NCBI GenBank assembly: GCA_042565725.1
Contig: JBHORK010000001.1
Location: forward strand, 4,995-68,994
Source: Verrucomicrobiota bacterium
GTDB taxonomy: Bacteria > Verrucomicrobiota > Kiritimatiellia > UBA8416 > JBHORK01
Direction: 5' to 3'
DNA: 64,000 nucleotides
Shown here: positions 4,157 through 57,640 of the stretch, piece after piece
How positions within the stretch are numbered: position 1 is the first letter of the stretch
Layout of the letters: each line of letters opens with the position of its first letter
The notes under the pieces: generated by a model
Databases searched by the model: none
Told to the model about the DNA's origin: nothing
The model's input: the letters and a program-made list of their open reading frames with translations, nothing else
Position numbers and translations under genes: made by a program

Positions 4157-4393
4157 CTATTCGCCCAGAATCTCCTCAAGGTTTTTTTGGTGTTCGGCGC
4201 TTACTTTCTCCAGGGTCTCCCGTGCTTTTTTACCAGCTCTAACTGCAGTTCGTCCGGTGACGCCGTCTATGAAAGTTTCTGTTGATGATTTTTGGTCCGG
4301 CGATATTTCCCCGCTTTCTTTCTTTTCCTGCTCATTGGGTTTTCTGCAGCCGGTAAGTCCGTATAGAATTAATATTATTAAGAACAGTTTCAT
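4157..4393 (-). CDS. Small lipoprotein (78 aa)
   Basis: MKLFLIILILYGLTGC lipobox; hydrophilic K/E-rich remainder; start overlaps the HK stop by 4 bp (operon). Confidence 0.5.
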   Translation of the reverse strand: MKLFLIILILYGLTGCRKPNEQEKKESGEISPDQKSSTETFIDGVTGRTAVRAGKKARETLEKVSAEHQKNLEEILGE

Positions 4394-5928
4394 CTTATGG
4401 TTGTTCTTTGTGTGGCCGTGCTCTTCTGTGAAAGAACACGACGGATTGTTTCGAGAAAATGTTCAGAACGGAATGGCTTCTGGATGAATTCCCATGATCC
4501 GCGTCCCAGGTAGCCTCTTACATAGTCTCTTGAGAATCCTGATGTCAGGATGATAAGAGCTGTTGGGTCTATCGCGAATATTTCCTCTACGATCTTCTTG
4601 CTGTCTTTTCCCGGCATTATAACGTCAATAATTGAAAGTTTGATATCACCTGCGTGATCTTTGTAAAATGGAACGACTTTTTCAGGGTCTTTTAACGTAT
4701 GAACATGATAACCAGATTTTTGAAGAACGTCTCTAGCTTTGTCTAAGACTTCTTTTTTATCATCCGCCATAAGGATAGTTTCACCCCCTGCGTGTGCAAC
4801 GCGTTTTGCTTCTTTTTCTGCTTGAACTTTGGCTTTCGGAATGAACAGCCTGAAACTTGATCCGTGGCCGGGTTGACTTCTGACTTTTACATAACCTCCC
4901 CAGCGCTGGATGGAGCTTTTGAGCGCAGTTAAGCCGAGTCCGGTTGCAGAGCCTTGCTCTTTTGTTGAAAAGAAAGGCTCAAAGATACGATTTAAAATGT
5001 CTTTGGGTATTCCGCAGCCGGTATCGCGTATGCGTAGAACCACATATTTTTTCTTGCCGGCTACTTTTAGCGAAGTATCGATTAATATGTCGCCTCCGGA
5101 GGGCATTGCATCAGCGGCGTTAAAGAATAAATCAAGTATGCTGTCAAGAAGCTGGCTTTCATCAGCCATAACATAGGGTGTTTTTGTAAGATTCGGAGCT
5201 TTTAAAATTATTTTACGTTCATCGAAAGTAGCTTTAACCATGTTAATGGCGTTTTTAATTACTCTGCCTAATGGAATTGGTTTGATTTCCATTTCGCCGT
5301 TAATGTTGCTTGCTCGAGCAATGCTTAGCAGACGTTTCGGGATTTGTCCGGCATGTTCGGATGCCTGGAGAATGCTGAGCGCTTCCTCATATGCCTTGGT
5401 GTTCGGGATAAGGGTGTCGGCTATCGCTGACGCGTGAGACGATATAATCCCAAGCCAGTTAGTGAATTTAAGCGCTATGCTTTGTACAACATTTCCTATT
5501 GCTTCTATTTGCTGCTTGTTCCGGGTTTCCCTGTTTTTCAGCATTTTTTTGGTTGTATCGCTGAAAACAAACACACAACCTTCAATGCTGCTCCTGTACC
5601 CCATTATTGGAGAGAGTGTTCCTCTAATAATTATTTCTCGTTTATCAAGAGTAACCATTATTGTGTCTGGGAAGTTTCTGGGTTCGGAACTTTTATGGAA
5701 TGATAACGCTGTTGGAATCCTTACGGATGTACGCTTATTGTGATCGAAAAGCTGGAATAATTCCTTCTGGGGCTTACCAAGGAACGATTTCAGCTTTTGA
5801 CCGGTAAGCAACTCAGCATGGTAGTTCATAAATGTTATGAGCCCACCTTTGTCGGTGGCAATTACGGCCTCGCTCATGTATCTCAAAATCGAGCTTAACC
5901 ACTTGGCATCTTTGTATTTAGGGTCCAT
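4390..5928 (-). CDS. Hybrid sensor histidine kinase (PAS - HisKA - HATPase_c - C-terminal receiver)
   Basis: True start MDPKYKDAKWL at 5928 (the ORF-track N-terminal extension to 6150 looks non-coding); HATPase motifs DTGCGIP...GLGLTAL; C-terminal REC-like segment ILMADDKKEVLDKARDVLQKSGYHV...SIIDVIMPG. Confidence 0.8.
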   Translation of the reverse strand: MDPKYKDAKWLSSILRYMSEAVIATDKGGLITFMNYHAELLTGQKLKSFLGKPQKELFQLFDHNKRTSVRIPTALSFHKSSEPRNFPDTIMVTLDKREIIIRGTLSPIMGYRSSIEGCVFVFSDTTKKMLKNRETRNKQQIEAIGNVVQSIALKFTNWLGIISSHASAIADTLIPNTKAYEEALSILQASEHAGQIPKRLLSIARASNINGEMEIKPIPLGRVIKNAINMVKATFDERKIILKAPNLTKTPYVMADESQLLDSILDLFFNAADAMPSGGDILIDTSLKVAGKKKYVVLRIRDTGCGIPKDILNRIFEPFFSTKEQGSATGLGLTALKSSIQRWGGYVKVRSQPGHGSSFRLFIPKAKVQAEKEAKRVAHAGGETILMADDKKEVLDKARDVLQKSGYHVHTLKDPEKVVPFYKDHAGDIKLSIIDVIMPGKDSKKIVEEIFAIDPTALIILTSGFSRDYVRGYLGRGSWEFIQKPFRSEHFLETIRRVLSQKSTATQRTTIR

Positions 5929-6092
5929 GTTTGTTGATTTCCTCTTCTGTTGTAATTTACAACGCAGTATTTGTCTGGTCAAGACAAACGAGCCCTGAGG
6001 AATTTGCAATGTAACCCGTCCTGAGGCGGGCAAGCGCAAATGCGAAGGGGAATAGGGGCGGAAACGAGAAGGTCTGAGAATTAGGTCCCGAC

Positions 6093-6118
6093 ACGAAATA
6101 CGCTTCACGAGATACGAG
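6093..6118. repeat. Copy of dispersed motif GTATCTCGTGAAGCGTATTTCGT (reverse orientation), about 165 bp upstream of the HK operon start
   Basis: acgaaatacgcttcacgagatacgag; the same 17-26-nt motif recurs at 11031-11075 (degenerate tandem), 37672-37707, 37978-38002 and 38899-38937. Confidence 0.7.
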
Positions 6119-6298
6119 TTAGAATTCGCGGGATTTAAACCTATTTCCAAGCCAGAGCGGAATAAGAGTGGTTAACGCAGTGATAACAAACAGCCATACT
6201 CCCGCCCAGATCAAACCCGAGTACAGTTGCGAAAGACTGATTTTGTTGGTGAAGTGCAAATGGGATACAAATCCGAAAGGCAATATTACTGCCAGCAT
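6119..6298 (-). CDS. Small hydrophobic membrane protein (59 aa), hypothetical
   Basis: MLAVILPFGFVSHLHFTNKISLSQLYSGLIWAGVWLFVITALTTLIPLWLG...; the longer ORF-track version runs into the repeat element and is unlikely. Confidence 0.3.
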   Translation of the reverse strand: MLAVILPFGFVSHLHFTNKISLSQLYSGLIWAGVWLFVITALTTLIPLWLGNRFKSREF

Positions 6299-6313
6299 GA
6301 AGCATAAACTAGT

Positions 6314-6568
6314 CTGAACATTGCACGAACAAAACAGAATGTTTAATAAAAAGGGAATAACCACAGGGCGATATAAAGATTTTTTGAAGAAACAACAAAA
6401 CACAAATTGTAATCTTAGTTTTTGAGAGAATATTCTGTTTTGTTCGCCCGAAGGGTGAGTTCACAGCACGTAATCGCCTTTGTTCTCAAGGGTAAAGCGG
6501 TATGCTATACAGCGTTACCCTTGACGCCGCGGCGCTTCCGCACTGTGAACTCATGCAATGATCAGGCT
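6314..6568. repeat. ~255-bp dispersed structured repeat, copy 1 (MITE or sRNA-like); second copy at 25087-25346
   Basis: About 90% identical to 25087-25346 by eye; internal inverted repeats cgaacaaaacagaat / attctgttttgttcg about 100 bp apart, and hairpin caagggtaa(a/c)gcggtatg(c/t)tatacagc(g/a)ttacccttg. Confidence 0.75.
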
Positions 6569-6587
6569 AGGATAATGAATATACGTT

Positions 6588-7475
6588 TCACGGCCTTTGG
6601 GTGACTTCCAGAAGCTCAGATTGGATTTTTGAAAGTTCTGATTTGAGAGATGCAAACTTTGGGTTGTCAGTTAATTTTTTCGCGTTCCAGTCACTGTACT
6701 TTTTCTTCGCAGATTTAAAATCATCCACAAGTTTGATGTTTTTTCCTTTCATGCGACGCAGTTCGTCTGCTATCTCAATGCGTTCGGCACCTGTTGACGA
6801 GTCTCTTTTCTTTTGGAGGATTTCTGTTTTCTTCCAGAATTCATTATAAGTTTTTTTTGAAGTTTCATACTCTTCGGCGTATGGATTGTTGGATTTTATA
6901 AAAGCCTGTTGCTCTTTCAGCAGTGTTCTTAATTGCGCCGCGACTTTGGATTGGTCTGATCTCAGCTTTTTCTCCTCGGGATTTGCTGTATCCAGTGAGC
7001 CCGAACGTAGATCAAGATTTTCCGCTCGAATATATATGTTTGGCACAAGTCGGTTGTTATGATGGACGCTACACAGTGCCAGATTTTCTTTGCTTACTGT
7101 TTTTGTTTCGGACACTTCGACAAGTGTTCCGGGGGCGATTTTCCGTAAGAACTTGTAGGATTCATTGTATGCATTAGCGCCGGAGCTTTTTACCACACCC
7201 CATTTCAAGTGAGTATTAACGGCTGGTTTTTTTCCTGAGGTTTCGGAGGGAATGTCAATTTTCTCCAGGTCTGGCTTCTCCCAGAGGATCTGTTCAAGGT
7301 CTTCCTCGATTTTTGCAATTGTTTTGGTTGTTTGTCGGGGCCGGGGTTGAGTGGAACGCGTTTGATATACGCGTTCCTGGTTACGCAAACATCCAACGCT
7401 AAAGTAAATGGCTGTAGTGCCAGCAACGGCGACGATCAGGTATTGAATAATAAATTTTTTCCATGCATTTGTCAT
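6588..7475 (-). CDS. Hypothetical lipoprotein with coiled-coil, K/E-rich C-terminal half
   Basis: Signal peptide plus lipobox FSVGC; no recognisable catalytic motifs; possible SH3-like middle segment (low certainty). Confidence 0.5.
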   Translation of the reverse strand: MTNAWKKFIIQYLIVAVAGTTAIYFSVGCLRNQERVYQTRSTQPRPRQTTKTIAKIEEDLEQILWEKPDLEKIDIPSETSGKKPAVNTHLKWGVVKSSGANAYNESYKFLRKIAPGTLVEVSETKTVSKENLALCSVHHNNRLVPNIYIRAENLDLRSGSLDTANPEEKKLRSDQSKVAAQLRTLLKEQQAFIKSNNPYAEEYETSKKTYNEFWKKTEILQKKRDSSTGAERIEIADELRRMKGKNIKLVDDFKSAKKKYSDWNAKKLTDNPKFASLKSELSKIQSELLEVTQRP

Positions 7476-7498
7476 ATGTTGTCAGTTGTATGTAAAAA

Positions 7499-7771
7499 TT
7501 AATTTTCGGCTGACGATGATCGCAAGAGCCCTATTGCCGTAAGAATTCCAACTATACAGCCGAATAACAAATAAGCGAGAAGGAAACTCTGATTCTGTCC
7601 GATAAAAAGTGTCCATCCCCATTTGTATGCAAACAGATAAGCGGCAATAAGACCAACACGATTATACCTGCAGACCAGACATAACGCGAGAATCATAAGA
7701 AGAATAGAAATTTCCAGTGCTGGCAGTGTTAGATTGGCTTGGAGAAGAATCTTGAAAAAATCTTTGGTCAC
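7499..7771 (-). CDS. Small 3-TM membrane protein (90 aa)
   Basis: Three hydrophobic segments; sits between the lipoprotein and the protease pair on the same strand. Confidence 0.4.
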   Translation of the reverse strand: MTKDFFKILLQANLTLPALEISILLMILALCLVCRYNRVGLIAAYLFAYKWGWTLFIGQNQSFLLAYLLFGCIVGILTAIGLLRSSSAEN

Positions 7772-7899
7772 ACAGTTTCCTTTTTATGGGATGGATTACA
7801 AAATCAGTTTATTATGAATTAGCGGTTAATTGCAAGAATATTAAGGAATTTGCGCATGCGCAAATTCAAAAGGGGTAGTAGTAGGGAAGCCCGATCCCG

Positions 7900-9369
7900 T
7901 TATTTTTGGCTAACGTTCTGATAACGAAGTTTGGGTACTCGGTAGCGTTCTGATAATCTTGCGTTGGCCTCAGCAAGTGTTTCTGTGTCTAGAACCAGAT
8001 CTACGCCGATCGACTTGAGTGTAAGCCGCTCAATGCTTCCATCACGGTCAACAATTCCGAAAACGTCCGACATGTTTTGTATCTTTTTGCCGTTGATATG
8101 TGTGATTATTGAGCTGTAAAAATACTGATAACCAATATTTATCGGGTCAGAGAGAACAGACGAAAGTATTACAATGCGATCTCCTGCAGCATTAAGGGAT
8201 TTTTTCCGCGTTAAATATAAATGCACAAGTTCAGAATCAGCTTTGCTGCGCCAGTTCTCTCCAAAAGACTTGAGGTATTTTCCTGTCAGCTCTCTTATTA
8301 CGAGTCCGCCTTCCACAAGATATTCCGGCTGTTTACCCTCGGTGTTGTCAGGGATAAAAGAGTCGGAATCTAGCAAATGGTCCAATTGTATTTTGATGTT
8401 CTGAATCTTTTTATTGCGCATAAGTTGAACGGATACCGTGTCGCCGGGTTTATGTCTGCCGTTAATAAGATATGTAAACATCAGCCTGCCGAACTTTTCG
8501 TCTTTGTAATAGCCAAGATTGTCAATTGCATGGCCATCCAGGCTGAGTATTACGTCAAGAGGTTTCAGCGACTCGCGTGCCCCGGTTTCGGGCAGACATG
8601 ACAGAACGAGTATGCCGACTTCGTCCTTTCCGACTCCAAAATACGACCGCTTAACGGGATCAATAAGAGTGGACCATGTGAAGCCTGCGGACGCAATTCC
8701 TTCATATGGTTTTTTTTCAGCGTCTTTTATAAAACGATTTAGAACACAGTAGGGCAGTACATCTCCCGTGCGTGTGCTTCGGTTATATCTGATTACAAGG
8801 CCTGCAAGCTTACTGTCATATATCACTGCCGCTCCCATGCCGTTGACGTTCAGGTCGGTAAGCACGCTGAATGTAAGAGAAACGTGTGGTGCTTTAGGCA
8901 GATATTTCATTGCAATCTGGAACATCTTTGCTTTTCCCTGCTGAATTTTGAAAGTCTCACCAAATTGTATTATTTCAACTTCACTCTCAGCTGGTACGTC
9001 TTGCGCCAGACTCAGCGGAGTAATCCATGGGGCTTCGTTTGTGTCGGTGATAGTAAGCAAAGCTAAATTAGACTGGTAGTCGCATAATTCCACCTTCGCG
9101 TTGATCTTTTTTCCCGAGCCGGACCTTCGAAGTTCCACAAGGGTGTGGTTGCGAATTATACTCTCTGTCGTAATAACCTGTGATTTGCTGATCGCTACAC
9201 CATAGCCGTATCTAACACACGGCTTCCATTTTTGCCATGGTTTAAAAGGATTAAATTCCTGATATGTGGCAACTACCTGTACAACACTCTTTTCAAAATC
9301 ATCTGTGTATGCGAACTGCGCTGAAATAAAAATTAACAATATCAGGATTTTTGAGGATGAAAGCTTCAT
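7900..9369 (-). CDS. Trypsin-like peptidase paralogue lacking the catalytic serine motif (likely pseudoprotease), secreted
   Basis: Signal peptide; same architecture as the upstream gene, but the GNSGGP position reads NGMGAAV (no Ser); the two ORFs overlap by 4 bp. Confidence 0.6.
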   Translation of the reverse strand: MKLSSSKILILLIFISAQFAYTDDFEKSVVQVVATYQEFNPFKPWQKWKPCVRYGYGVAISKSQVITTESIIRNHTLVELRRSGSGKKINAKVELCDYQSNLALLTITDTNEAPWITPLSLAQDVPAESEVEIIQFGETFKIQQGKAKMFQIAMKYLPKAPHVSLTFSVLTDLNVNGMGAAVIYDSKLAGLVIRYNRSTRTGDVLPYCVLNRFIKDAEKKPYEGIASAGFTWSTLIDPVKRSYFGVGKDEVGILVLSCLPETGARESLKPLDVILSLDGHAIDNLGYYKDEKFGRLMFTYLINGRHKPGDTVSVQLMRNKKIQNIKIQLDHLLDSDSFIPDNTEGKQPEYLVEGGLVIRELTGKYLKSFGENWRSKADSELVHLYLTRKKSLNAAGDRIVILSSVLSDPINIGYQYFYSSIITHINGKKIQNMSDVFGIVDRDGSIERLTLKSIGVDLVLDTETLAEANARLSERYRVPKLRYQNVSQK

Positions 9370-10889
9370 TGTTTGTCCTTTACGGGATGCTTAGGAAACA
9401 TGTCGTTAAAATATTCAGGAGCCGACAATCCGTAACTGGACATTATTTCACTTTCAACTTTTTTTGATGCCGTTGCGTCGAGAACAAGAACATCATCCAT
9501 TCCAGCGAAACGCATCACATGAAATCCGTTTTGCGGACTGTTGATTGCTTTTTTTATGTCCGCAATGTTACAGATATGAATGCCGTTAATCTCTGTTACA
9601 ATGCCATTAAAGAAATAATTGGCATATGTGTTTACTTTGTGAGGAAGACGTCGGATCAGCACTACGAATTCGTCTCGATCTTCGTAAAGCTTATGCGTTT
9701 TGGCATACTGTGAATAGTAGAGCAGCTGTTGGCTGTTGTTGCCGGGATTTCCTCTCAAAGTGTTTAGATATGCCCTGTTGAAAGGCGAGAATATAAGTCC
9801 GCCAACCATGAAATATTCTGGAAGTTCGTCGTATACACGCCTGAAAGCATATGGGTCTTTGGGATTGGTCAGCGGGACGGTGACTTCAATCTCCTTTTTG
9901 TTGCGCCATACCTTGAAAATCACTGATTCGCCCCATTGTTTTTGTTCAAGAAGCTCCTCGAAGCGGACATTATTTCCATTGAAATCAACTGTGCCGTCGT
10001 TTTCTATTATGTGCTGGTCAACGGAGAGTAAAACGTCTTTTACTTCCAGAAGGTTAACCGCGCTTCCGAAAGGATCAAGATAATATACGGCAACACCGGT
10101 CTTTGATGCCGGCAATCCAAGGCTTTTGTGGAGAGCAATGTTGTGTAATTCAATCCATGAAGCACCAAGCTCCGGGTAGCCGTTGTAATCACCATCTTTA
10201 ATATCCTCCAGGAAATGATTGATTACAGGGATTGGTATGGCGTATCCAATATTATCTGATTCAGCTAAACCCTGGAAGGCCAGGCCGACCACTTTGTCTT
10301 TGAAAATAATCGGACCTCCGCTGTTACCTGGATTGATGGCTGCGTCAACCTGTAGAACCAGGTGCTGGTCAATCCCGCTGTGTGAGTAAGTGCTGTAATC
10401 TATGCGTGACACGATACCCCTCGTTATTGAAAGACGGATACCTCCTCTGGGGTAGCCTAAGACCGTGACTTCATCATTCAAGCGCGGGAGTTGCTTCGCG
10501 AAAGTAACAGGACTGGTTCCTTTGAAGAACGATGGGTCGTCAACCGAAAGTATCGCCAGATCACAATCATGCCCGCTGAAACTGACTCGTGCTCTGTATT
10601 TTTTTGCGTCACCGTTTTTCTGGACCTGTAGAAATTTTACGTCGGACACAATATGTGCATTGGTTAAAATGCGGCGTTTATCAATGATGAAACCCGTGCC
10701 GTTTCCTTTTATCTGAAAGCCGCTTTGCCATGGCATGGAATAATCCGCCCGCTGGATCGTGGCGTATATTTTAACAACAGAATTACGCAGTGATTTTCGT
10801 CCGAATGCGGCATAAGCGTTTCCGGTGAATTCGGCTAAAACCGATAACAGCAAGAGAGATATCAGCCATTTTGCAGTTGATTTGTTCAT
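9366..10889 (-). CDS. Secreted trypsin-like serine protease (S1C/DegP-like catalytic domain plus C-terminal beta-rich/PDZ-like region)
   Basis: Signal peptide; catalytic His in ILTNAHIV, Asp in DCDLAIL, Ser in NPGNSGGPI. Confidence 0.8.
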   Translation of the reverse strand: MNKSTAKWLISLLLLSVLAEFTGNAYAAFGRKSLRNSVVKIYATIQRADYSMPWQSGFQIKGNGTGFIIDKRRILTNAHIVSDVKFLQVQKNGDAKKYRARVSFSGHDCDLAILSVDDPSFFKGTSPVTFAKQLPRLNDEVTVLGYPRGGIRLSITRGIVSRIDYSTYSHSGIDQHLVLQVDAAINPGNSGGPIIFKDKVVGLAFQGLAESDNIGYAIPIPVINHFLEDIKDGDYNGYPELGASWIELHNIALHKSLGLPASKTGVAVYYLDPFGSAVNLLEVKDVLLSVDQHIIENDGTVDFNGNNVRFEELLEQKQWGESVIFKVWRNKKEIEVTVPLTNPKDPYAFRRVYDELPEYFMVGGLIFSPFNRAYLNTLRGNPGNNSQQLLYYSQYAKTHKLYEDRDEFVVLIRRLPHKVNTYANYFFNGIVTEINGIHICNIADIKKAINSPQNGFHVMRFAGMDDVLVLDATASKKVESEIMSSYGLSAPEYFNDMFPKHPVKDKQ

Positions 10890-11982: not shown

Positions 11983-13710
11983 ATGACGAAAAAACCTTAC
12001 TCTGAGAAGATTTCCGGTATTCTGATCAAACGCAAGGCAATAGAATTGCCAGCACTCCAGGATGCGGAACAGGAAGCTCATTCATCAGGTGAACGGCTTG
12101 AGAAGTATCTCGTTGATAAACAACTCGTCTCACATGCAGATATGGCTCTGGCAATATCGGAATATCTCGGTATGCCGCCAATTGCGTTGTCTCACTTTAC
12201 TCCTGATCCTCAACTTTCAGCTCTCATTCCTCGCGAGGTGCTGGTAAGGCACAAGGCTATTCCTGTTTCCAAGCTGGGACGAAGCCTTACGGTAGCTGTT
12301 GCAGACCCTTTTGATATTATCGCGCTAGATGAACTCCAGACCCTGACGGGTCTGGAAATAACCCCGCTTGTTGCATCGCGCAGGGAAATAGTGGAAACCA
12401 TGGAACGAATTTTCCCTAATGAGTCCGGAAATATAGATATTGAAGATGTTCTGAAAGAGGCCGATGCCGACCTTGAAGTCACCCATGAAAAAGTGGATGA
12501 AGATCAGGGTGAAAGTATTGATTCTATACTCGAAAGGGCTGAAGGTGCTCCGGTAGTTCGTATGGTCAGCATGATATTGCTCGAAGCGCTTAGACAAGGT
12601 GCCAGTGATATCCATCTGGAACCCCAAGAGAAGACCCTCCGTCTTCGATATAGAATAGACGGAACACTGATAAACAATCCGAGCCCTCCTAAACATCTGC
12701 AAGGCGCGGTTATCTCAAGAATGAAAATAATGTCCGGTATGGATATCGCAGAGAATCGTATACCGCAGGATGGACGTATAAAGATTCATGCTTTAGGAAA
12801 GGAAGTGGACCTTCGCGTAAATACTTTACCGACCATTTTCGGCGAAAAGATTGTCATGCGCTTGCTGGATAAAAGCGCGCTGTTTCCTAATCTTGCGGCG
12901 TTGGGATTGGACGAAGAAGCCTTTCGAGCCATGAGACATGCTATTGCTCAGCCAAATGGGGTTATCCTTGTAACCGGTCCCACGGGCAGCGGTAAAACCA
13001 CCACTCTTTATTCCTGTCTTATGGAATTAAATCAGCCTGAGGTTAACATCATTACTTGCGAAGATCCTGTTGAGTATCAGCTTCCGGGAATTAACCAAGT
13101 ACAGATTAATGCTTTTATTGGGTTTACATTCTCCTCAGCTCTCCGTTCAGTACTCAGGCAAAGCCCTGACATCATTCTTGTCGGAGAAATTCGTGATTCG
13201 GAAACAGCGGAAATAGCTATCAAAGCTGCGCTTACCGGTCACCTTGTATTGAGCACGCTTCACACCAATGACTCGGCAGGTGCAATTACACGATTAACTG
13301 ATATGGGTGTTGAACCATCACTTCTCGCTTCTTCTCTGATTCTGGCGCAGGCTCAACGTTTGATTCGTAAACTTTGTCCGGCATGCAAGAAGAAATCCGG
13401 GAAACTACCTCTCGATTTACTGAAATCGTATGATATAGCCCCTTCCTTTTTTGAAGGGGAGAAAATCTATGAGGCAAAAGGCTGCATAAAGTGCCGTAAT
13501 ACAGGATACAAAGGACGAATGGCTGTTATGGAAGTGTTGCCCGTTGATAAAGAGCTCAGGAAGGATATACTTCAAGGCTTGAGTGCTAAAGAACTTCTTA
13601 TTAAGGCTCAGGAAAAGGGTATGATATCTCTAAAAGATATAGGCATGCAACAGGTGAAAAAGGGCCAGACCAGTATTGAGGCGGCTTTACGTGTTACCGG
13701 TGGTGAATGA
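11983..13710 (+). CDS. GspE/PilB-family secretion ATPase with N-terminal GspE_N (MshEN-like) domain, copy 1
   Basis: Walker A GPTGSGKTTT; tetracysteine CPACKK...CIKCRNTGYKGR; N-terminal domain ISGILIKRKAIELPALQDAEQEA. Confidence 0.9.
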   Translation: MTKKPYSEKISGILIKRKAIELPALQDAEQEAHSSGERLEKYLVDKQLVSHADMALAISEYLGMPPIALSHFTPDPQLSALIPREVLVRHKAIPVSKLGRSLTVAVADPFDIIALDELQTLTGLEITPLVASRREIVETMERIFPNESGNIDIEDVLKEADADLEVTHEKVDEDQGESIDSILERAEGAPVVRMVSMILLEALRQGASDIHLEPQEKTLRLRYRIDGTLINNPSPPKHLQGAVISRMKIMSGMDIAENRIPQDGRIKIHALGKEVDLRVNTLPTIFGEKIVMRLLDKSALFPNLAALGLDEEAFRAMRHAIAQPNGVILVTGPTGSGKTTTLYSCLMELNQPEVNIITCEDPVEYQLPGINQVQINAFIGFTFSSALRSVLRQSPDIILVGEIRDSETAEIAIKAALTGHLVLSTLHTNDSAGAITRLTDMGVEPSLLASSLILAQAQRLIRKLCPACKKKSGKLPLDLLKSYDIAPSFFEGEKIYEAKGCIKCRNTGYKGRMAVMEVLPVDKELRKDILQGLSAKELLIKAQEKGMISLKDIGMQQVKKGQTSIEAALRVTGGE

Positions 13711-13717
13711 GGTAATT

Positions 13718-15439
13718 ATGAGCGAAAAGAAATCAAGCGATAGTCTTGCGAATATTCTTATCAGGCGTAACGTGGTTCCCGATGATGTCCTTGAGACCGC
13801 CCGGGAAGAAGCAAAATCTTCCGGGTTGACACTGGAGAGGTATCTGGTGGAAAACGATCTCGTTCGCGGTGATCAAATGACTTTAGCAATATCGGAGTAT
13901 CTCGGAATGCAGCCGATTTCACTTGCCCATTTCATTCCCGACCTTCAGCTCATTGAAACATTGCCGCGTCAGACTTTAAGTAAACACCAGATCATCCCCA
14001 TCACTCAGACCGGTAAAAATCTGACTGTCGCACTTGGTGACCCATTCAATATTATGGCTATTGACGAACTTCATATTCAGACGGGGCTGGACATAACTTC
14101 TTTGGTGGCTTCGGAACAGGAAGTTAGCAAAGTGCTGGAGCAGACCAAAGTACAGGAAGCAGGCGCGCTGGATATGGAGGACATCATGAATGAGGAGGAA
14201 GACGGGGGGATGTCTGTTGGATCACAGGAAGAACTCGAACAGCAAAGCCTTGAAGAAATGATGGAAAGCGCCGAGGACCGACCGGTTATTCGCATGGTTA
14301 ATATGATATTGATTGAAGCAATAAAACTGGGAGCAAGTGATATCCATATCGAACCGCAGGAGGACAAAGTAAGGCTTCGATACAGGGTTGATGGAGTGCT
14401 GATAGAACATCCCAGTATCCCCAAAAGTCTTCAGTCCGCAATTATTTCAAGAGTTAAGATTATGGCGGATATGGATATCGGCGAACAGCGGCTTCCGCAG
14501 GATGGACGATTCAGGATAACAGCTCTCGGCAAGGCTATAGATGTTCGTGTCAGCATTCTTCCCTCCATCTTTGGCGGTAGAGTAGTATTGAGAACCCTGG
14601 ACAAAAGTGCTTTGTTTCCCAACCTTGCGGCCTTGGATCTTGACAAGCGCGCTTATGATTCATTGAGTTATGCTATCGCGCAGCCCCACGGCATAATCCT
14701 TGTAACCGGTCCTACGGGAAGCGGTAAGACCACCACACTGTATTCCTGTCTGCAGGAACTCAACAAACCCGATATAAATCTGACTACATGCGAGGATCCT
14801 GTTGAATATCAGGTCCCGGGAATAATTCAGGTGAAAATAAATACTGATGTCGGATGTACTTTCGGTGCCGCACTCAGGGCAATATTGAGACAGGACCCCG
14901 ACATTGTTCTGATCGGAGAGATTCGTGATTCGGAAACATGTGAAATCGCCATAAAAGCTGCGCTTACCGGACATTTGGTTTTGAGCACGCTTCACGCAAA
15001 TGATGCTTCAGGTACTATAACGCGCTTGCTGGATATGGGAATGGAGCCGTTCCTGTTGGCTTCATCCCTGATTCTTGCACAAGCCCAGCGTCTGTTTCGT
15101 AAGCTCTGCCCAAACTGCAGAAAAGAAGCAAAGCCGTCCCAAAAACTTCTAAAAGAGCATCATGTGCCCCTGGATTTTTTCAATGGAACAAAAATCTACG
15201 AGGCAAAAGGCTGTCACCAGTGTCACAACATGGGCTATCGTGGCCGAAATGCGATTATGGAAGTTCTAACAATTGATGAAGATGTTCGGCTTGGTATTAT
15301 GCGTAAAGCCATGGCTGATGAAATAGAGGATATTGCAACCGGGAAAGGAATGGTGACTCTTCGCCAGGCGGCCCTTGAAAAGGTAAAAGAAGGATCGACA
15401 AGTATTGAAGAAGCGCTTAAAATTACGGTAAGCAGATAA
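13718..15439 (+). CDS. GspE/PilB-family secretion ATPase, copy 2 (tandem paralogue)
   Basis: ATG at 13718 after gaggtaa; Walker A GPTGSGKTTT; CPNCRK...CHQCHNMGYRGR; collinear with copy 1 throughout. Confidence 0.9.
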   Translation: MSEKKSSDSLANILIRRNVVPDDVLETAREEAKSSGLTLERYLVENDLVRGDQMTLAISEYLGMQPISLAHFIPDLQLIETLPRQTLSKHQIIPITQTGKNLTVALGDPFNIMAIDELHIQTGLDITSLVASEQEVSKVLEQTKVQEAGALDMEDIMNEEEDGGMSVGSQEELEQQSLEEMMESAEDRPVIRMVNMILIEAIKLGASDIHIEPQEDKVRLRYRVDGVLIEHPSIPKSLQSAIISRVKIMADMDIGEQRLPQDGRFRITALGKAIDVRVSILPSIFGGRVVLRTLDKSALFPNLAALDLDKRAYDSLSYAIAQPHGIILVTGPTGSGKTTTLYSCLQELNKPDINLTTCEDPVEYQVPGIIQVKINTDVGCTFGAALRAILRQDPDIVLIGEIRDSETCEIAIKAALTGHLVLSTLHANDASGTITRLLDMGMEPFLLASSLILAQAQRLFRKLCPNCRKEAKPSQKLLKEHHVPLDFFNGTKIYEAKGCHQCHNMGYRGRNAIMEVLTIDEDVRLGIMRKAMADEIEDIATGKGMVTLRQAALEKVKEGSTSIEEALKITVSR

Positions 15440-16821: not shown

Positions 16822-18192
16822 ATGTCGAGCATATTACTTGTAGATGATGAATTAAGCATTTTGAGTGTGCTAAACACCTTGCTGAAAGCAGAAGGCTATG
16901 AAGTTGTTACTGCGCAAGGAGGGGATAAGGCCAAGGAAGTTCTTGAGAAACAAGAGTTTGATCTGATGCTTTCCGATATACGTATGGCTCCTGTGGATGG
17001 TATTCAGCTGCTCAAGTTTGTTCATGCCGAACATCCTGACATGGCCGTGATCATGCTGACGGCCTTCGGATCGGTCGAAACAGCAATTGAAGCTTTGAAA
17101 CTCGGTGCGTTTGATTACATCACCAAGCCTTTTAAGGTGGATGAACTTCTTATCACTGTGCAGAGAGCATTGGAATATAAGACTGCTCTCACCGAAAATG
17201 TTAGCCTCAAGAGTCAGCTTGGGGCGCGTTATGAGCTTGAGAAGATTGTCGCCGAAAGTCCGGCAATGCAGAATGTCTGCGAAATGATTAAGCGTGTGGC
17301 ACCTACTGACACAACGGTGCTGATTTACGGTGAAAGCGGTACAGGCAAAGAACTTATTGCCCAAGCTATTCATTCCAACAGCCGCAGGGCTGAAAAGAAT
17401 TTCCTGGCAGTTAACTGCGCGGCACTTCCGGAGGCATTGCTGGAATCTGAGATGTTTGGCCATGTTAAAGGCGCTTTTACGGGTGCAGCATCAAACAAAG
17501 AAGGATTGTTTGAGGCAGTAAAAGGCGGCACTATTCTTCTCGACGAAATAGGATCCATGCCCATGAGTATACAGGGTAAACTCCTGCGAGTCCTGCAGGA
17601 AAAGGAAATACGGCGTGTTGGAGGCAATGAACATATTTCTATAGACGCCCGCGTACTGGCGGCAACTAATTTCAATCTGGAAACACTCATGAAAGAGAAA
17701 AAATTCAGAGAAGACCTGTTTTACCGACTCAGTGTTATTCCTATTGAGGTTAAACCTCTCAGAGAAAGAAAGGAAGATATTCTGCCCCTTGTTTATCATG
17801 TCCTCCATGCGGAAACGCCGGAAGGACAACAGCCTCTTACGCTGGATCCTGAAGTGTGTTCAATCCTCGAGTCATATTCCTGGCCCGGCAATGTTCGTGA
17901 ACTGGAAAATGCAGTAAAACACGCCATGACTTTTGTTGAGGACAACAAAATCACAAAAGAAGTTCTGCCGCCCAAGATAGCTGCTACACCTGTCGCTGCG
18001 ACATCCTCTCCATCGCAAACCGATGTGCAAAGCGGACGGTGCAAATCTCTGAGAGCTTTCCTTCGTTCCAGGGAAAGAGAATATCTGGAGCAGGTTCTTT
18101 CTCATACTTCCGGTGATAAGGAAAAAGCCGCCGAAAAACTTAAAATAAGCTTATCCACTCTTTACCGTAAACTGCCCGAATCACAGGAATAA
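16822..18192 (+). CDS. Sigma-54-dependent response regulator (REC - AAA+ sigma54 activator - Fis-type HTH), PilR/NtrC-like
   Basis: REC domain with phospho-acceptor (LMLSDIRMAP); GESGTGKE Walker A; GAFTGA motif (HVKGAFTGA); C-terminal HTH. Confidence 0.9.
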   Translation: MSSILLVDDELSILSVLNTLLKAEGYEVVTAQGGDKAKEVLEKQEFDLMLSDIRMAPVDGIQLLKFVHAEHPDMAVIMLTAFGSVETAIEALKLGAFDYITKPFKVDELLITVQRALEYKTALTENVSLKSQLGARYELEKIVAESPAMQNVCEMIKRVAPTDTTVLIYGESGTGKELIAQAIHSNSRRAEKNFLAVNCAALPEALLESEMFGHVKGAFTGAASNKEGLFEAVKGGTILLDEIGSMPMSIQGKLLRVLQEKEIRRVGGNEHISIDARVLAATNFNLETLMKEKKFREDLFYRLSVIPIEVKPLRERKEDILPLVYHVLHAETPEGQQPLTLDPEVCSILESYSWPGNVRELENAVKHAMTFVEDNKITKEVLPPKIAATPVAATSSPSQTDVQSGRCKSLRAFLRSREREYLEQVLSHTSGDKEKAAEKLKISLSTLYRKLPESQE

Positions 18193-18403: not shown

Positions 18404-18420
18404 TGGCACGGGTACTGCTA
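18404..18420 (+). promoter_or_regulatory. Sigma-54 promoter TGGCAC-N5-CTGCT upstream of the pilin gene
   Basis: tggcacgggtactgcta; GG(18405-6)-N10-GC(18417-8); about 85 bp upstream of the ATG at 18505; the same -12 variant CTGCT as the gspE promoter. Confidence 0.7.
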
Positions 18421-18504
18421 TATATTGATACAACAATTGTTGTGTAATAGGTACACAGCAGAGGGGGCAAGGTCGCAGCCCTGAACTAACTAAGGAGGAA
18501 TGCG

Positions 18505-18864
18505 ATGAAAAAGAAGAAATTAGGTTTCACTCTTGTTGAAATCATGATCGTTGTAGCGATTATCGGCCTTTTGGCTGCTATTGCTATTCCTTCATTTGTG
18601 AAGGCACGTAATACGTCTGTCCAGAATGCTTGTATAAACAACCTTCGTCAGGTTGATTCAGGAAAAGAACAGGCAGCTATGACATATAGATGGCCTGATG
18701 ATCAGTCGACCGACGCTGGTACGTACAGATCCAATGTGAACAGTTACATTAAGGGTGGTGAGCATAATTGCCCTGGTGATAATAGCACATACACCTATGG
18801 CAACATAGGCGTCAACCCTGTATGTTCGTTCAGCGGAACGTCTACATCGCACGTGCTTCAATAA
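18505..18864 (+). CDS. Prepilin-type N-terminal cleavage/methylation domain protein (type IV pilin/pseudopilin)
   Basis: KKLGFTLVEIMIVVAIIGLLAAIAIP class-III signal with G-F cleavage site and Glu at +5; RBS aaggagg. Confidence 0.9.
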   Translation: MKKKKLGFTLVEIMIVVAIIGLLAAIAIPSFVKARNTSVQNACINNLRQVDSGKEQAAMTYRWPDDQSTDAGTYRSNVNSYIKGGEHNCPGDNSTYTYGNIGVNPVCSFSGTSTSHVLQ

Positions 18865-18880
18865 TAGTCAACATTGAACA

Positions 18881-18917
18881 AAAAAAACAACCCCGCCGCA
18901 AGCGGGGTTGTTTTTTT
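18881..18917. terminator. Bidirectional rho-independent terminator between convergent pilin and TMTC-like genes
   Basis: A7-c-aaccccgc-cgcaa-gcggggtt-gT7: GC-rich 8-bp stem flanked by an A-tract and a T-tract. Confidence 0.85.
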
Positions 18918-21091: not shown

Positions 21092-21171
21092 TGGAGTACT
21101 GGAGTGCTGGAGTAATGATTAAATTAACAAAAGCTTTTTTTCCAATACTCCAATACTCCAGTACTCCATTA
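21092..21171. promoter_or_regulatory. Inverted arrays of the heptamer TGGAGTA / TACTCCA (3 copies each arm) in the divergent promoter region
   Basis: Left arm tggagtactggagtgctggagtaatg, right arm ccaatactccaatactccagtactccattac, separated by about 23 bp. Confidence 0.5.
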
Positions 21172-21301
21172 CTTCATGGGGTTAACAGATTTCTAGGCGT
21201 TTGATTTACATTGCTGTCATTAGTTAATTCAATAAGACAAATAGCTCTATAATTGTCCGAATATAATGCAAAAACAGTTCTACTAGTATATACTTCGTGT
21301 T

Positions 21302-25046: not shown

Positions 25047-25086
25047 CCCGACCGTTGCTACATTAGCTTTCTTCTGCTACGATTAG

Positions 25087-25346
25087 CCTGAATATTGCAC
25101 GAACAAAACAGAATGTTTAATAAAAATGGAATAAATACAGGGTGGCATAAAAATTCTCTAAAGAAATAACAAAATACAAATTGTAATCTTTAGTTTTTGG
25201 AGGGAATATTCTGTTTTGTTCGCCTGTTGGGTGAGCCCACAGCACAGAATCACCTTTGTTCTCAAGGGTAACGCGGTATGTTATACAGCATTACCCTTGA
25301 CGCCGCGGCGATTCCGCACTGTGAACTCATGCAATGATCAGGTTAG
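25087..25346. repeat. ~260-bp dispersed structured repeat, copy 2, ending 4 bp before the GT2 start codon
   Basis: Collinear with 6314-6568; same internal inverted repeats and hairpin. Confidence 0.75.
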
Positions 25347-25350
25347 TCAT

Positions 25351-26226
25351 ATGAAATTGCTTAGTATAATTATTCCGATCCACAATGCTGAAAATTCTAT
25401 CGGGCGTACCTTGCAGTCTTTGGACAGGATGGCTGTAAGGTCAAAAAACAGTTGTGAGCTTATTATTGTTGACGACGGTTCAACGGACAATAGCACGCAG
25501 GTCGTTGATGAAAAACAATCCGAACTGGACGATTTTGATATCAAACTGTTTGCGCAGGAGAATAAAGGGAGCGGGAGCGCGCGAAATGCGGCTTTAAATA
25601 AATGCGAGGGAACATGGATACTCTTTCTTGATGCCGACGATGAACTGTTTTCCGACCCCGTTCCTGTTCTTGAGCAATATCCCGATTCCTCCTGTATTGG
25701 GTTTTCCGTTAACTTATATAAAGATCCGCGGCACAGAACAGTGGTTCTTCCGACTCGTGTTACACAGCGGAACTATCTCCGCGTTTTTACGTCCAGGAAC
25801 CCTTTCGCAATCTCAAGTCTCATTTTTAAAAAGGACCGAATTACAACAATGTTCGATGAGAATTTCATGTATCTGGAGGATTGGCTGTTCTGGGTTATGA
25901 ACCCTGATATTTTCAAGGAAATGGAAATGTGTTCCGCCCGCATGATTGCGAACATTCATTGGCATCCTGACAACAAAACATCCAACGAGCTTTTACATGG
26001 CAAATACAGGCAAAAAGCCGCTGAAACAATGATGGATTATTTCGGTGATAAGCTTGATCCCAAACAGAAAAATAATCTGCGGATCCAGGCTGATATAGGA
26101 AGGATTCAGCAGGGCGGAAGAACTCTTGGGGCTTTGCTCCCGAAAATCCCCTGTAACATGACTTTATACGCAAAGTTAATTATGTACTATTTAAAACTGG
26201 CTCGACCATTCCAGCCATTTAAATAG
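25351..26226 (+). CDS. GT2 family glycosyltransferase
   Basis: MKLLSIIIPIHNAENSIGRTLQSL...IIVDDGSTDNS; start at ATG 25351 (the ORF-track start at 25216 lies inside the repeat). Confidence 0.8.
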   Translation: MKLLSIIIPIHNAENSIGRTLQSLDRMAVRSKNSCELIIVDDGSTDNSTQVVDEKQSELDDFDIKLFAQENKGSGSARNAALNKCEGTWILFLDADDELFSDPVPVLEQYPDSSCIGFSVNLYKDPRHRTVVLPTRVTQRNYLRVFTSRNPFAISSLIFKKDRITTMFDENFMYLEDWLFWVMNPDIFKEMEMCSARMIANIHWHPDNKTSNELLHGKYRQKAAETMMDYFGDKLDPKQKNNLRIQADIGRIQQGGRTLGALLPKIPCNMTLYAKLIMYYLKLARPFQPFK

Positions 26227-56424: not shown

Positions 56425-56560
56425 GCGCTTGAGACAATTGCACAAAATGATATTTCATATGGAACGGTTCTGGAGGTATTCATGATTGATCTGCCGCATA
56501 TATACTACATTTCAATCGATCATTGCTCTAGGCCAAAGAAAACAATTAACACAACCGCTG

Positions 56561-57640
56561 TTAAAGAAGGAATTGAATTCCCATTAAAGTCTGGTCGTTG
56601 CTGTCTCCCCATCGGTATTCCACTCCGCCCCTGACATTATTACCTTTTAAAAAATAGTGGAGGCCTGCTGTGTAGTCTTCAGTGGAATCGCATGACTCTG
56701 GATCCTGCAAACTGTATTTTCCTGTAAGCATTACTTTGTCAACTATTAGACCGGCTTCGGCGAAAACCGTACTGCCGTCAAACCCGGCATTATCCCAGTC
56801 ATAATATGCTCCATTAAGCATTAACTCGGCACAGCCCATATCTAGCCCGGCCTGTATGTCTGCAACCCATGCCTTGGAATCATCCACGACTGAGGTTTCC
56901 AGTGTCCCTGCAACAGGATCAGCCTCTGTCACTGTTAAAGTCGCATCATTCTGCGTGTCTCCGCCCAGCCCGATTGAAAGATAATTTCCGCCGGCTGTGA
57001 GGCGATTCTGAGAGTAGAACCATCCTGATTGCACGTCACCGATTAAGTTCATCGCAAGATGACCGGTGTAGCGTAATGGCGCATCAGAATTCTTGTTCCC
57101 ATCCGGAGAATCGTAACCATCGAAAACTCCTACATGATAGGCAAGCTTATCACAGAATTTTCCGTGAAGTTCGGCGCCATAGTCGCGCCATACAAAATGG
57201 TTTGCAAACTTGATTGCTTCCGCATTGTAATCAATACCCATCAAACTGGCAGCGGAAGACTTGTTCTCAAAAGAGAAGGGGAGTAGTATAAGACCTGTCG
57301 CCAACCAATGATCTGATTTGCCCAGACGAATATCTACAAAGGCATCCTGAATATCTGTTGATGATGAGGCTTTTCCGTTTCTTCCTGCATTATCATTATC
57401 GGTTTCGACAAAGAATTTAACACCGTCACAAATCTGACCCGATAGAATAAAGCGCCCTCTGCGCAGGTAGAAATCTTCATCGTCTGCGGTATCGTGCGGC
57501 AGTAATAAATGAACTTGCCCTAAAACAGAAAGCTTCATGGATGCATCGTCATTTATTTTCCATTCCGGCCCTGCCAGAGTCTGAATTGCAGCAAAACCAA
57601 GCACGAAACATATTATTAATATTTTAACTGATTTCATCAT
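56561..57640 (-). CDS. Outer-membrane porin-like beta-barrel protein
   Basis: Signal peptide MMKSVKILIICFVLGFAAIQTLA; acidic, G/D-rich strands. Confidence 0.5.
   Translation of the reverse strand: MMKSVKILIICFVLGFAAIQTLAGPEWKINDDASMKLSVLGQVHLLLPHDTADDEDFYLRRGRFILSGQICDGVKFFVETDNDNAGRNGKASSSTDIQDAFVDIRLGKSDHWLATGLILLPFSFENKSSAASLMGIDYNAEAIKFANHFVWRDYGAELHGKFCDKLAYHVGVFDGYDSPDGNKNSDAPLRYTGHLAMNLIGDVQSGWFYSQNRLTAGGNYLSIGLGGDTQNDATLTVTEADPVAGTLETSVVDDSKAWVADIQAGLDMGCAELMLNGAYYDWDNAGFDGSTVFAEAGLIVDKVMLTGKYSLQDPESCDSTEDYTAGLHYFLKGNNVRGGVEYRWGDSNDQTLMGIQFLL

What the first reader, a model, noticed from the sequence alone, without database searches (positions are those of the whole stretch)
6314..6568. 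Second dispersed ~255-bp structured repeat family (copies at 6314-6568 and 25087-25346)
Two roughly 90%-identical copies each contain a 15-bp inverted repeat pair (cgaacaaaacagaat / attctgttttgttcg) about 100 bp apart. Each also carries a strong hairpin (caagggtaacgcggtatgttatacagcattacccttg). Copy 2 ends 4 bp before the start codon of a GT2 gene. Copy 1 sits between two minus-strand genes in the opposite relative orientation. That argues for a mobile MITE or sRNA gene rather than a conserved cis-leader. Spurious ORFs are generated through both copies (6422-6604, 25216-25350).
Basis: seen in the sequence. Interest (0 to 1): 0.55.

Follow-up and report, generated by a model that had tools for sequence, protein, structure and literature searches.

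The report
Small non-coding mobile DNA element, two copies
The repeat is most likely a roughly 255-bp non-coding "jumping" DNA element (a MITE) present twice in an uncultured Verrucomicrobiota genome, one copy lying exactly where about 3.8 kb of genes have been lost; it is an ordinary kind of element from a previously unseen family.

Summary
Two same-strand copies (6310-6570 and 25084-25346) are 88.6% identical over 263 nt, and their flanks are unrelated.

- 13-16-nt terminal inverted repeats (CCTGAWYATTGCAYGA).
- 4-bp flanking direct repeats that differ between copies but match within each copy: CTAG...CTAG and TTAG...TTAG. This fits the YTAR target duplication of IS5-type transposases.
- A nested build: a 124-nt palindromic core with a 130-nt AT-rich-looped hairpin module inserted in its left arm.

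There is no coding capacity, no Rfam match, and no consensus promoter or terminator.

Copy 1 abuts the last ~62 codons of an ABC_tran_2 permease gene. A distant syntenic locus has a transglutaminase gene, an ABC ATPase gene and the whole permease gene at that place. Copy 1 therefore marks a deletion junction.

Best reading, at confidence 0.7: a new MITE family in an NCBI Verrucomicrobiota MAG. The element is moved in trans by a DDE transposase that was not found, and it sits as a large stem-loop structure inside two operons.

Genome-wide copy number, the partner IS and empty sites could not be tested. The MAG is in none of the searchable DNA collections, and it has no close relatives in the protein database. 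It is a new member of a known kind and of low to moderate interest.

The parts
6309..6312 (.). Left flanking 4-bp direct repeat of copy 1 (CTAG)
   Evidence: It is identical to 6567-6570. Similarity between the copies ends here.
6313..6566 (+). Element copy 1 (254 bp), non-coding and highly structured
   Evidence: 88.6% identity to copy 2. (fold z -8.4 and -9.4).
6313..6328 (+). Left terminal inverted repeat of copy 1 (TCTGAACATTGCACGA)
   Evidence: the pattern CCTGAWYATTGCAYGA hits all four element ends (0.37 matches expected by chance in the window). pair I3.
6551..6566 (-). Right terminal inverted repeat of copy 1 (CCTGATCATTGCATGA on the minus strand)
6326..6455 (+). Module A: 130-nt hairpin with perfect 15-nt arms (6326-6340/6432-6446), a 27%-GC loop and a CCCGAAGGG mini-hairpin. 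It appears to be an insert in the left arm of a palindromic core.
   Evidence: Removing it leaves a contiguous 35-nt inverted repeat (29/35 matched) and a 124-nt single hairpin of -65 kcal/mol.
6456..6553 (+). Stem B (6456-6478/6531-6553, 23 nt, 83% complementary), which encloses the apical GC-rich hairpin 6486-6524
   Evidence: pairs I2, I4.
6567..6570 (.). Right flanking 4-bp direct repeat of copy 1 (CTAG)
6122..6307 (-). Remnant of the last ~62 codons of an ABC_tran_2-type permease gene. It abuts the left end of copy 1, with 1 nt between it and the CTAG repeat. The rest of the gene and two further genes are missing.
   Evidence: tblastn of the L058 555-aa permease: residues 487-552 match 6346-6128 at 41% identity, E 4e-10. 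An all-library phmmer search hits the C-terminal ends of longer proteins, e.g. P0128, 556 aa, residues 493-549, E 6e-7. Synteny is shown.
6588..7475 (-). Upstream flanking gene of copy 1 (hypothetical protein, NCBI locus tag ACFLS1_00055). Its stop codon is 17 nt from the right direct repeat.
4390..5928 (-). Downstream PAS-histidine kinase-receiver gene. Its likely start is the ATG at 5928.
   Evidence: Pfam. The alignment to the L058 kinase starts at 5904.
25083..25086 (.). Left flanking 4-bp direct repeat of copy 2 (TTAG)
   Evidence: It is identical to 25343-25346 and differs from the CTAG of copy 1 at the same position on both sides.
25087..25342 (+). Element copy 2 (256 bp). TIRs at 25087-25102 and 25327-25342, module A at 25100-25231, apical hairpin at 25262-25300.
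25343..25346 (.). Right flanking 4-bp direct repeat of copy 2 (TTAG), 4 nt before the GT2 start codon
23880..25046 (+). Upstream flanking gene of copy 2 (GumK-like GT1 glycosyltransferase)
   Evidence: Pfam.
25351..26226 (+). Downstream flanking gene of copy 2 (GT2 glycosyltransferase, identical to NCBI MFC1496863.1)

Best explanation
[quoted passage not shown] It comes from an uncultured Verrucomicrobiota genome.

Its ends are 13-16-nt terminal inverted repeats (CCTGAWYATTGCAYGA). These would be bound by a DDE transposase supplied in trans from a full-length insertion sequence elsewhere in the genome. That transposase is most likely IS5-like. Such enzymes insert at YTAR and duplicate 4 bp, which would give the CTAG and TTAG direct repeats seen here. 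An IS630-like enzyme that duplicates only the TA is the alternative.

The element is a composite. It has a 124-nt palindromic core. A second 130-nt hairpin module with an AT-rich loop is inserted in the left arm of that core, and the whole unit was copied together.

Both copies landed in short spacers inside operons, 31 nt and 44 nt long once the insert is removed. They should therefore be co-transcribed as a large three-way stem-loop. In copy 2 this structure ends 4 nt before the GT2 start codon, so it may sequester the ribosome-binding region.

Copy 1 sits at the junction of a ~3.8-kb deletion that removed a transglutaminase gene, an ABC ATPase gene and about 490 codons of an ABC permease gene. 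The probable cause is recombination between two direct copies, or a transposition-linked adjacent deletion.

Shown: the repeat, the TIRs, the flanking direct repeats, the structure, the lack of coding potential, and the truncated gene with its synteny.

Inferred: transposition itself, the transposase family, how the deletion arose, and any effect on expression.
For: 1. Similarity of 88.6% over 263 nt ends abruptly at both ends, and the flanks are unrelated.
2. The TIR consensus hits all four ends with at most 1 mismatch, against 0.37 matches expected by chance in the window.
3. The 4-bp direct repeats are CTAG/CTAG at copy 1 and TTAG/TTAG at copy 2. The one variable position changes together on both sides. 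In copy 2 the 4-mers match as a direct repeat (4/4) but not as an inverted repeat (2/4).
4. YTAR is the conserved 4-bp target duplication of IS5 (PMC10359306). An IS5-derived MITE, MITEPsy1, duplicates CTAG or YTAA (PMC3189936).
5. There is no coding capacity. A six-frame pseudo-protein found nothing at E<=10 among 5.8 billion protein clusters.
6. There is no Rfam family and no consensus promoter or terminator.
7. The two copies have opposite orientation relative to their host operons.
8. Deletion junction: a syntenic locus, L058, has three extra genes at this place. The window keeps only the permease C-terminus, starting 1 nt from the direct repeat.
9. Nested build: the virtual core folds as one 124-nt hairpin (-65 and -58.6 kcal/mol), with 29/35 and 27/35 matched arms.
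Against: - Only two copies are seen, both in one 19-kb stretch and on the same strand.
- Genome-wide copy number is unknown, because the source MAG is in none of the searchable DNA collections.
- No transposase gene is in the window (Pfam), and no IS with matching ends was found.
- No empty site could be examined. The closest homologues of the flanking genes are 47% and 34% identical.
- The evidence for a target duplication rests on one co-varying position. If copy 1 is a recombinant of two insertions, its CTAG pair is not a true duplication.
- Stems are less diverged than loops (6.9% vs 19.6%, Fisher p=0.004). This hints at constraint beyond neutral decay, which could mean a host function.
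Confidence: 0.7

Rival explanations
1. It is a small structured RNA gene family, or an RNA regulatory module. It is transcribed on its own or within the operon, and its stems are kept by selection at the RNA level. It may have been spread originally by transposition and then domesticated.
For: - Folding is extreme, z -7.5 to -10.6.
- Stems are about 3-fold less diverged than loops, p=0.004.
- In copy 2, all 7 non-Watson-Crick positions in stem B and one of the two in the apical hairpin are G-U on the minus strand.
- Both copies lie in a surface-polysaccharide and pilus gene neighbourhood.
Against: - No Rfam match, even at E<=10.
- No sigma-70-like promoter or intrinsic terminator in either copy.
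- Wobble bias is inconsistent: the outer and A stems favour the plus strand, and B favours the minus strand.
- The only two double-sided changes are in weak loop helices.
- RNA function does not explain the TIRs plus the flanking direct repeats.
- The two copies have opposite sense relative to their operons.
Confidence: 0.12
2. It is a non-mobile cis-regulatory DNA module, for example protein-binding palindromes. It was duplicated locally within the polysaccharide and pilus region to co-regulate two operons.
For: - Both copies are within 19 kb of each other, on the same strand, and immediately upstream of genes in a functionally related neighbourhood that includes a sigma-54 activator.
- The conserved perfect 15-nt arms could be binding sites.
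Against: - The gene downstream of copy 1 is a truncated pseudogene remnant, not a regulated start.
- The element is in opposite sense relative to its two host operons.
- The boundaries are sharp and carry matching 4-bp repeats.
- No sigma-54 or sigma-70 consensus is inside the element (by eye, the TIR reads TAGCCTGATCATTGCA and lacks the -24 GG).
- 15-nt arms 91-93 nt apart are atypical for operators.
Confidence: 0.08
3. It is a palindrome-associated element moved as single-stranded DNA by a Y1 (IS200/IS605 or RAYT-type) transposase. That enzyme would recognise the hairpins and cleave at a YTAG tetranucleotide.
For: - The element has strong subterminal hairpins.
- A tetranucleotide lies at both borders.
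- In stems B and apical of copy 2, G-T pairs occur on one strand only.
Against: - IS200/IS605 ends are not inverted repeats, whereas these ends are.
- In that family the left-flank target and the right-end cleavage site are independent. The C/T change seen on both sides within a copy would therefore be coincidence.
- No Y1 transposase or TnpB gene is in the window.
Confidence: 0.05

Closest known systems
MITEPsy1 of Pseudomonas syringae (IS5-family-derived MITE; PMC3189936)
   Same: It is a non-coding element with roughly 18-nt TIRs. It inserts at CTAG or YTAA and duplicates 4 nt. It is intergenic and low in copy number.
   Different: MITEPsy1 is 100 nt, its TIRs match a known parent IS (ISPsy2), and its transposition was trapped experimentally. 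Here the element is 254-256 bp with nested hairpins, shows no sequence similarity to anything searched, has no identified parent IS, and has not been shown to move.
Correia elements (Neisseria) and ERIC/IRU elements (Enterobacteria): about 100-155-bp palindromic intergenic repeats (from general knowledge)
   Same: The 124-nt virtual core is a long imperfect palindrome of similar size. It is inserted in operon spacers and is expected to be co-transcribed as a stem-loop. ERIC also has longer variants made by internal insertions.
   Different: There is no sequence similarity: blastn against 5,426 E. coli genomes, which carry ERIC, REP and IS5, found nothing. The flanking repeat is 4 bp YTAG rather than TA. 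The host phylum is different. Effects on mRNA are untested here.
IS630/Tc1-mariner-derived MITEs such as RUP (TA target duplication; PMC2170065 for the family mechanism)
   Same: TA lies at both borders, the element has short TIRs, and it is small and non-coding.
   Different: The bases on either side of the TA also match within each copy (C-TA-G, T-TA-G). That pattern fits a 4-bp duplication better than a 2-bp one.
REP/BIME elements mobilised by RAYT transposases (PMC3733652)
   Same: They are intergenic palindromic repeats with a conserved tetranucleotide at one border.
   Different: REPs are 20-40 bp, carry a GTAG or CGTC tag at one end only, and have no TIR or target duplication. This element is 254 bp with TIRs.

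Membership tests
MITE (non-autonomous DDE-transposon derivative) | Small size (about 50-1000 bp) and no transposase or other coding capacity | tested here: met
   The copies are 254 and 256 bp. A six-frame pseudo-protein had no hit at E<=10. The internal ORFs appear only in the mechanical ORF list.
MITE (non-autonomous DDE-transposon derivative) | Terminal inverted repeats at the exact limits of similarity between copies | tested here: met
   CCTGAWYATTGCAYGA is found at all four ends with 0-1 mismatch, against 0.37 matches expected by chance. One search, pair I3.
MITE (non-autonomous DDE-transposon derivative) | Target-site duplication flanking each copy, differing between copies | tested here: met
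   CTAG/CTAG and TTAG/TTAG. Caveats: only one position varies, and the copy-1 pair may come from two separate insertions.
MITE (non-autonomous DDE-transposon derivative) | Multiple dispersed copies in the genome | tested here: inconclusive
   There are two copies 18.8 kb apart in the 64-kb window. The rest of the MAG cannot be reached.
MITE (non-autonomous DDE-transposon derivative) | Ends shared with an autonomous IS in the same or a related genome | not testable with these tools
   No transposase gene is in the window.
MITE (non-autonomous DDE-transposon derivative) | Presence/absence polymorphism (empty sites) | not testable with these tools
   The nearest homologues of the flanking genes are 47% and 34% identical. 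A distant syntenic locus, L058, lacks the element but also differs by three genes.
IS5-family-derived element | 4-bp duplication of a YTAR target | tested here: met
   CTAG and TTAG both fit YTAR. The family rule is taken from PMC10359306 and PMC3189936.
IS5-family-derived element | TIRs that match an IS5-family transposase-bearing IS | not tested
   No ISfinder-type library is available, and there was no hit in the E. coli, plasmid or phage collections.
Bacterial sRNA gene / Rfam family | Match to a curated covariance model | tested here: not met
   There were 0 hits at gathering score in the window. At E<=10 there were only noise hits of 11-21 bits.
Bacterial sRNA gene / Rfam family | Own promoter and intrinsic terminator | tested here: not met
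   The consensus scans found none within either copy. Verrucomicrobial promoters may differ from the consensus used.
Bacterial sRNA gene / Rfam family | Compensatory base changes that keep the helices | tested here: inconclusive
   With two sequences only, the major helices are invariant or show one-sided changes. The two double-sided changes are in weak loop helices.
ERIC / REP-BIME | Sequence similarity to the enterobacterial consensus; for REP, a 20-40-bp unit with a GTAG tag | tested here: not met
   No blastn match in 5,426 E. coli genomes. The unit is 254 bp.
IS200/IS605-type palindrome-associated element | Ends that are not inverted repeats, no target duplication, and a Y1 transposase or TnpB nearby | tested here: not met
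   TIRs and matching flanking 4-mers are present. No such gene is in the window.

The most novel reading that the evidence does not exclude
The element is not just a decaying transposon. It would be a mobile structured module that the host keeps under selection, since its stems are about 3-fold more conserved than its loops. It would work as an operon-internal RNA or DNA switch: a three-way junction that hides the ribosome-binding region of the downstream glycosyltransferase gene, or a processing or insulation site. In this way it would tune surface-polysaccharide and pilus genes in a poorly sampled Verrucomicrobiota lineage.
Probability: 0.1. Interest if true: 0.5.

Novelty: new member of a known kind. 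Interest (0 to 1): 0.25.

Why it matters
- It adds a MITE family in a phylum where such elements are hardly described. The literature search found no Verrucomicrobia MITE report.
- It explains two spurious ORFs and one pseudogene fragment that automated annotation could miscall.
- It shows a concrete case of gene loss at a repeat: a transglutaminase gene and an ABC transporter deleted inside a conserved protease/kinase gene neighbourhood.
- If more copies exist, the element would be a useful marker for assembly breaks and strain variation in this lineage.
- Its position 4 nt before a glycosyltransferase start codon makes it a candidate modifier of polysaccharide gene expression.
- None of this changes current understanding of how MITEs work.

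Tried and rejected
**Searches for more copies**
- The genome-contig scan (CGAACAAAACAGAATRTT) gave 44 single hits, and the metagenome-contig scan (SRCGAACAAAACAGAATRTT) gave 13.
- All of these were single chance hits, with no second arm and no extended similarity.
- Not even the source contig was found, so the MAG is not in those collections. In hindsight, a TIR-based pattern might have found a parent IS.
- One viral-contig scan found nothing.
- blastn in distant mode against plasmids, phages and E. coli genomes found nothing.
- Exact-protein look-ups of window proteins and of P0001 were not on record.
- The six-frame pseudo-protein search for miscalled ORFs over related elements found nothing.

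**Empty-site comparison**
The best non-self homologues are 47% identical (GT2) and 34% identical (flanking hypothetical protein).
- Synteny around copy 2 in L059 and L060 was uninformative.

**Ideas rejected**
- Sigma-54 promoter in the TIR: rejected by eye, because TAGCCTGATCATTGCA lacks the -24 GG and that position varies among the four ends.
- Diversity-generating retroelement template/variable repeat pair: rejected, because the differences are not adenine-specific and both copies are intergenic.
- Segmental duplication: rejected, because the flanks are unrelated.
- Related element at the edge of contig L061: rejected, because the alignment score was no better than shuffles.
- The small ORF 6119-6298 as a real gene regulated by copy 1: rejected in favour of a permease remnant.

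Full report

Yes. The two stretches were read directly and aligned. blastn gives 6310-6570 against 25084-25346 at 88.6% identity over 263 nt, E 9e-94. The differences are 22 transitions, 11 transversions and one 2-nt indel.

Both copies lie on the + strand. Word-7 blastn, the repeat finder and a window self-comparison found no third copy in the 64-kb window.

- The 15-nt inverted pair is perfect in both copies: 6326-6340/6432-6446 and 25100-25114/25208-25222.
- The GC-rich hairpin is at 6486-6524 and 25262-25300.
- Copy 2 ends 4 nt before the ATG of a GT2 glycosyltransferase gene.
- Copy 1 lies between minus-strand ORFs.

Folding is far stronger than for shuffled sequence on either strand: -96 to -105 kcal/mol, z -7.5 to -10.6.

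**2.

*Terminal inverted repeats.* The outermost bases of the repeat pair with each other. The consensus CCTGAWYATTGCAYGA matches all four ends with 0-1 mismatch, where 0.37 matches are expected by chance in the window (pair I3).

*Flanking direct repeats.* Similarity between the copies stops exactly at a 4-bp direct repeat on each side:
- Copy 1: CTAG (6309-6312) and CTAG (6567-6570).
- Copy 2: TTAG (25083-25086) and TTAG (25343-25346).

The first base differs between copies but is the same on both sides of each copy. In copy 2 the 4-mers match as a direct repeat (4/4) and not as an inverted repeat (2/4). That is the signature of a target-site duplication. The element proper is therefore 6313-6566 (254 bp) and 25087-25342 (256 bp).

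*A second long stem.* A 23-nt stem (6456-6478/6531-6553) encloses the GC-rich hairpin, so the whole element folds as a three-way junction.

*A nested build.* When the 130-nt module holding the 15-nt arms and their 27%-GC loop (6326-6455) is removed in silico, the left end becomes a contiguous 35-nt inverted repeat of the right end: 29/35 matched in copy 1 and 27/35 in copy 2. The remaining 124 nt fold as one long hairpin of -65 and -58.6 kcal/mol. The element thus looks like a classical palindromic core that took up a second hairpin module before the two present copies diverged.

**3. Source and context**

The GT2 protein is 100% identical to NCBI MFC1496863.1, and the protein of 6588-7475 carries locus tag ACFLS1_00055. 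Both are from a 'Verrucomicrobiota bacterium' record with an 87.6-kb contig.

The lineage is poorly sampled. The next-best homologues are 47% and 34% identical.

The neighbourhood contains:
- PDZ/HtrA-type proteases;
- two PilB/MshE-like ATPases and a PilC-like protein;
- a sigma-54 response regulator;
- a long block of glycosyltransferases and methyltransferases with Wzm/Wzt-type export genes;
- the nqr operon.

No transposase gene is in the window.

With the insert and one repeat copy removed, copy 2 sits in a 44-nt spacer between a GumK-like GT1 gene and the GT2 gene, both on the + strand. Copy 1 sits in a 31-nt stretch between two minus-strand features. The same strand of the element is therefore sense in one operon and antisense in the other.

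**4. Copy 1 marks a deletion**

A distant syntenic locus, L058 (from a Logan assembly, reached through homologue P0122), has this gene order:
- trypsin-PDZ protease;
- PDZ protein;
- 94-aa ORF;
- P0122;
- transglutaminase;
- ABC ATPase;
- ABC_tran_2 permease (555 aa);
- PAS-kinase-receiver.

The window has the same order on its minus strand, from 10889 down to 4390. The transglutaminase gene, the ATPase gene and most of the permease gene are absent.

What remains is 6128-6307(-). It aligns to permease residues about 493-552 at 41% identity, E 4e-10. An exhaustive phmmer search hits the C-terminal ends of longer proteins, for example P0128 (556 aa, residues 493-549, E 6e-7).

The homology starts 1 nt from the left CTAG repeat. 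The small ORF 6119-6298 is therefore a gene fragment, not a gene that copy 1 regulates. The kinase gene most likely starts at the ATG at 5928.

An element sitting precisely at a ~3.8-kb deletion junction is what two processes would leave:
- recombination between two direct copies; or
- a transposition-linked adjacent deletion.

In either case the two CTAG repeats of copy 1 may come from two target sites. Copy 2 is then the clean example of a duplication.

**5. Tests of the alternatives**

*RNA gene.*
- There was no Rfam hit at gathering score in the window.
- At E<=10 only noise appeared.
- No sigma-70-type promoter or intrinsic terminator lies inside either copy.
- With two sequences, covariation cannot decide. 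The main helices are invariant or change on one side only.
- G-T/G-U positions favour the plus strand in the outer and A stems and the minus strand in stem B. No single strand is favoured.

*Coding.* A pseudo-protein joining every open stretch of at least 18 codons in all six frames of both copies matched nothing at E<=10.

*Segmental duplication.* The flanks are unrelated.

*Known repeat families.* There was no blastn match in plasmids, phages or 5,426 E. coli genomes.

*One point in favour of function.* The major stems differ at 6.9% of positions and the rest at 19.6% (Fisher p=0.004). This could reflect constraint while the element was still being copied, or selection after insertion.

**6. 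Mechanism proposed**

The element is a MITE. A DDE transposase encoded elsewhere binds the terminal inverted repeats and inserts the element at YTAR with a 4-bp duplication.

This is the rule for IS5 (PMC10359306). It also holds for the IS5-derived MITEPsy1, which duplicates CTAG or YTAA (PMC3189936).

An IS630-type enzyme that duplicates only the TA (PMC2170065) is possible. It would not explain why the bases on either side of the TA also match.

Once inserted in an operon spacer, the element should be transcribed with the operon and form a large stem-loop structure. In copy 2 the closing stem reaches to 4 nt before the GT2 start codon.

Status of each part of this account:
- Shown: the repeat, its ends, its flanking repeats, its structure and the deletion.
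- Inferred: transposition, the transposase family, the way the deletion arose, and any effect on expression.

**7. What could not be done**

- The source contig itself was not found. The MAG is therefore absent from those collections, and genome-wide copy number is unknown.
- No parent IS and no empty site could be examined.

**8. Verdict**

This is a new family of a well-known kind of element, lineage-restricted as far as can be seen. Its one notable consequence is gene loss at copy 1. Interest is low to moderate.

Noticed in passing
window 18405-18865: A good sigma-54 promoter match (TGGCACGGGTACTGCT, 18405-18420) lies about 85 nt upstream of a 120-aa ORF (18506-18865). The ORF begins MKKKKLGFTLVEIMIV..., a prepilin-type N-terminal cleavage/methylation motif. 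It sits next to the sigma-54 response regulator gene (16822-18192) and the PilB/PilC-like genes.
   Followed up: no
window 18881-18917: A 37-nt GC-rich palindrome is flanked by an A-run and a T-run (AAAAAAAACAACCCCGCCGCAAGCGGGGTTGTTTTTTT). It lies between convergent genes and looks like a bidirectional intrinsic terminator.
   Followed up: no
window 21092-21176: Three tandem 8-bp units (GGAGTACT GGAGTGCT GGAGTAAT) face three inverted units (AATACTCC AATACTCC AGTACTCC) across a 33-nt AT-rich spacer. The array lies in the divergent region upstream of the glycosyltransferase operon that starts at 21302, and may be a regulator-binding array.
   Followed up: no
window 56495-56530 and 57919-57954: A 36-nt inverted repeat pair (89% identical) brackets a 1.46-kb segment holding a porin-like gene (56561-57640, weak Porin_O_P hit) and its upstream region. 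It might be an invertible or mobile cassette. It shares only the 9-mer GCAATGATC with the MITE end, which is at chance level.
   Followed up: partly
window 11983-15439: Two tandem paralogous PilB/GspE-type ATPase genes are about 69% identical over 938 nt at the DNA level. Each has an N-terminal MshE-like c-di-GMP-binding motif. This is the other repeat in the window, and it is coding, not a dispersed element.
   Followed up: partly
window 4390-10889 vs L058: A gene neighbourhood is conserved between this MAG and a distant metagenomic contig: two PDZ proteases, a small ORF, a hypothetical protein and a PAS-kinase-receiver, at 33-57% amino-acid identity. The 295-aa window protein matches only the C-terminal half of its 474-aa homologue.
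   Followed up: partly
L061 1-62: A 1.7-kb metagenomic contig carries a 60-aa ORF homologous to the permease C-terminus. The upstream homology is cut by an in-frame stop 30 nt from the contig end. It may be another truncated copy or an assembly edge. It shows no similarity to the MITE.
   Followed up: yes
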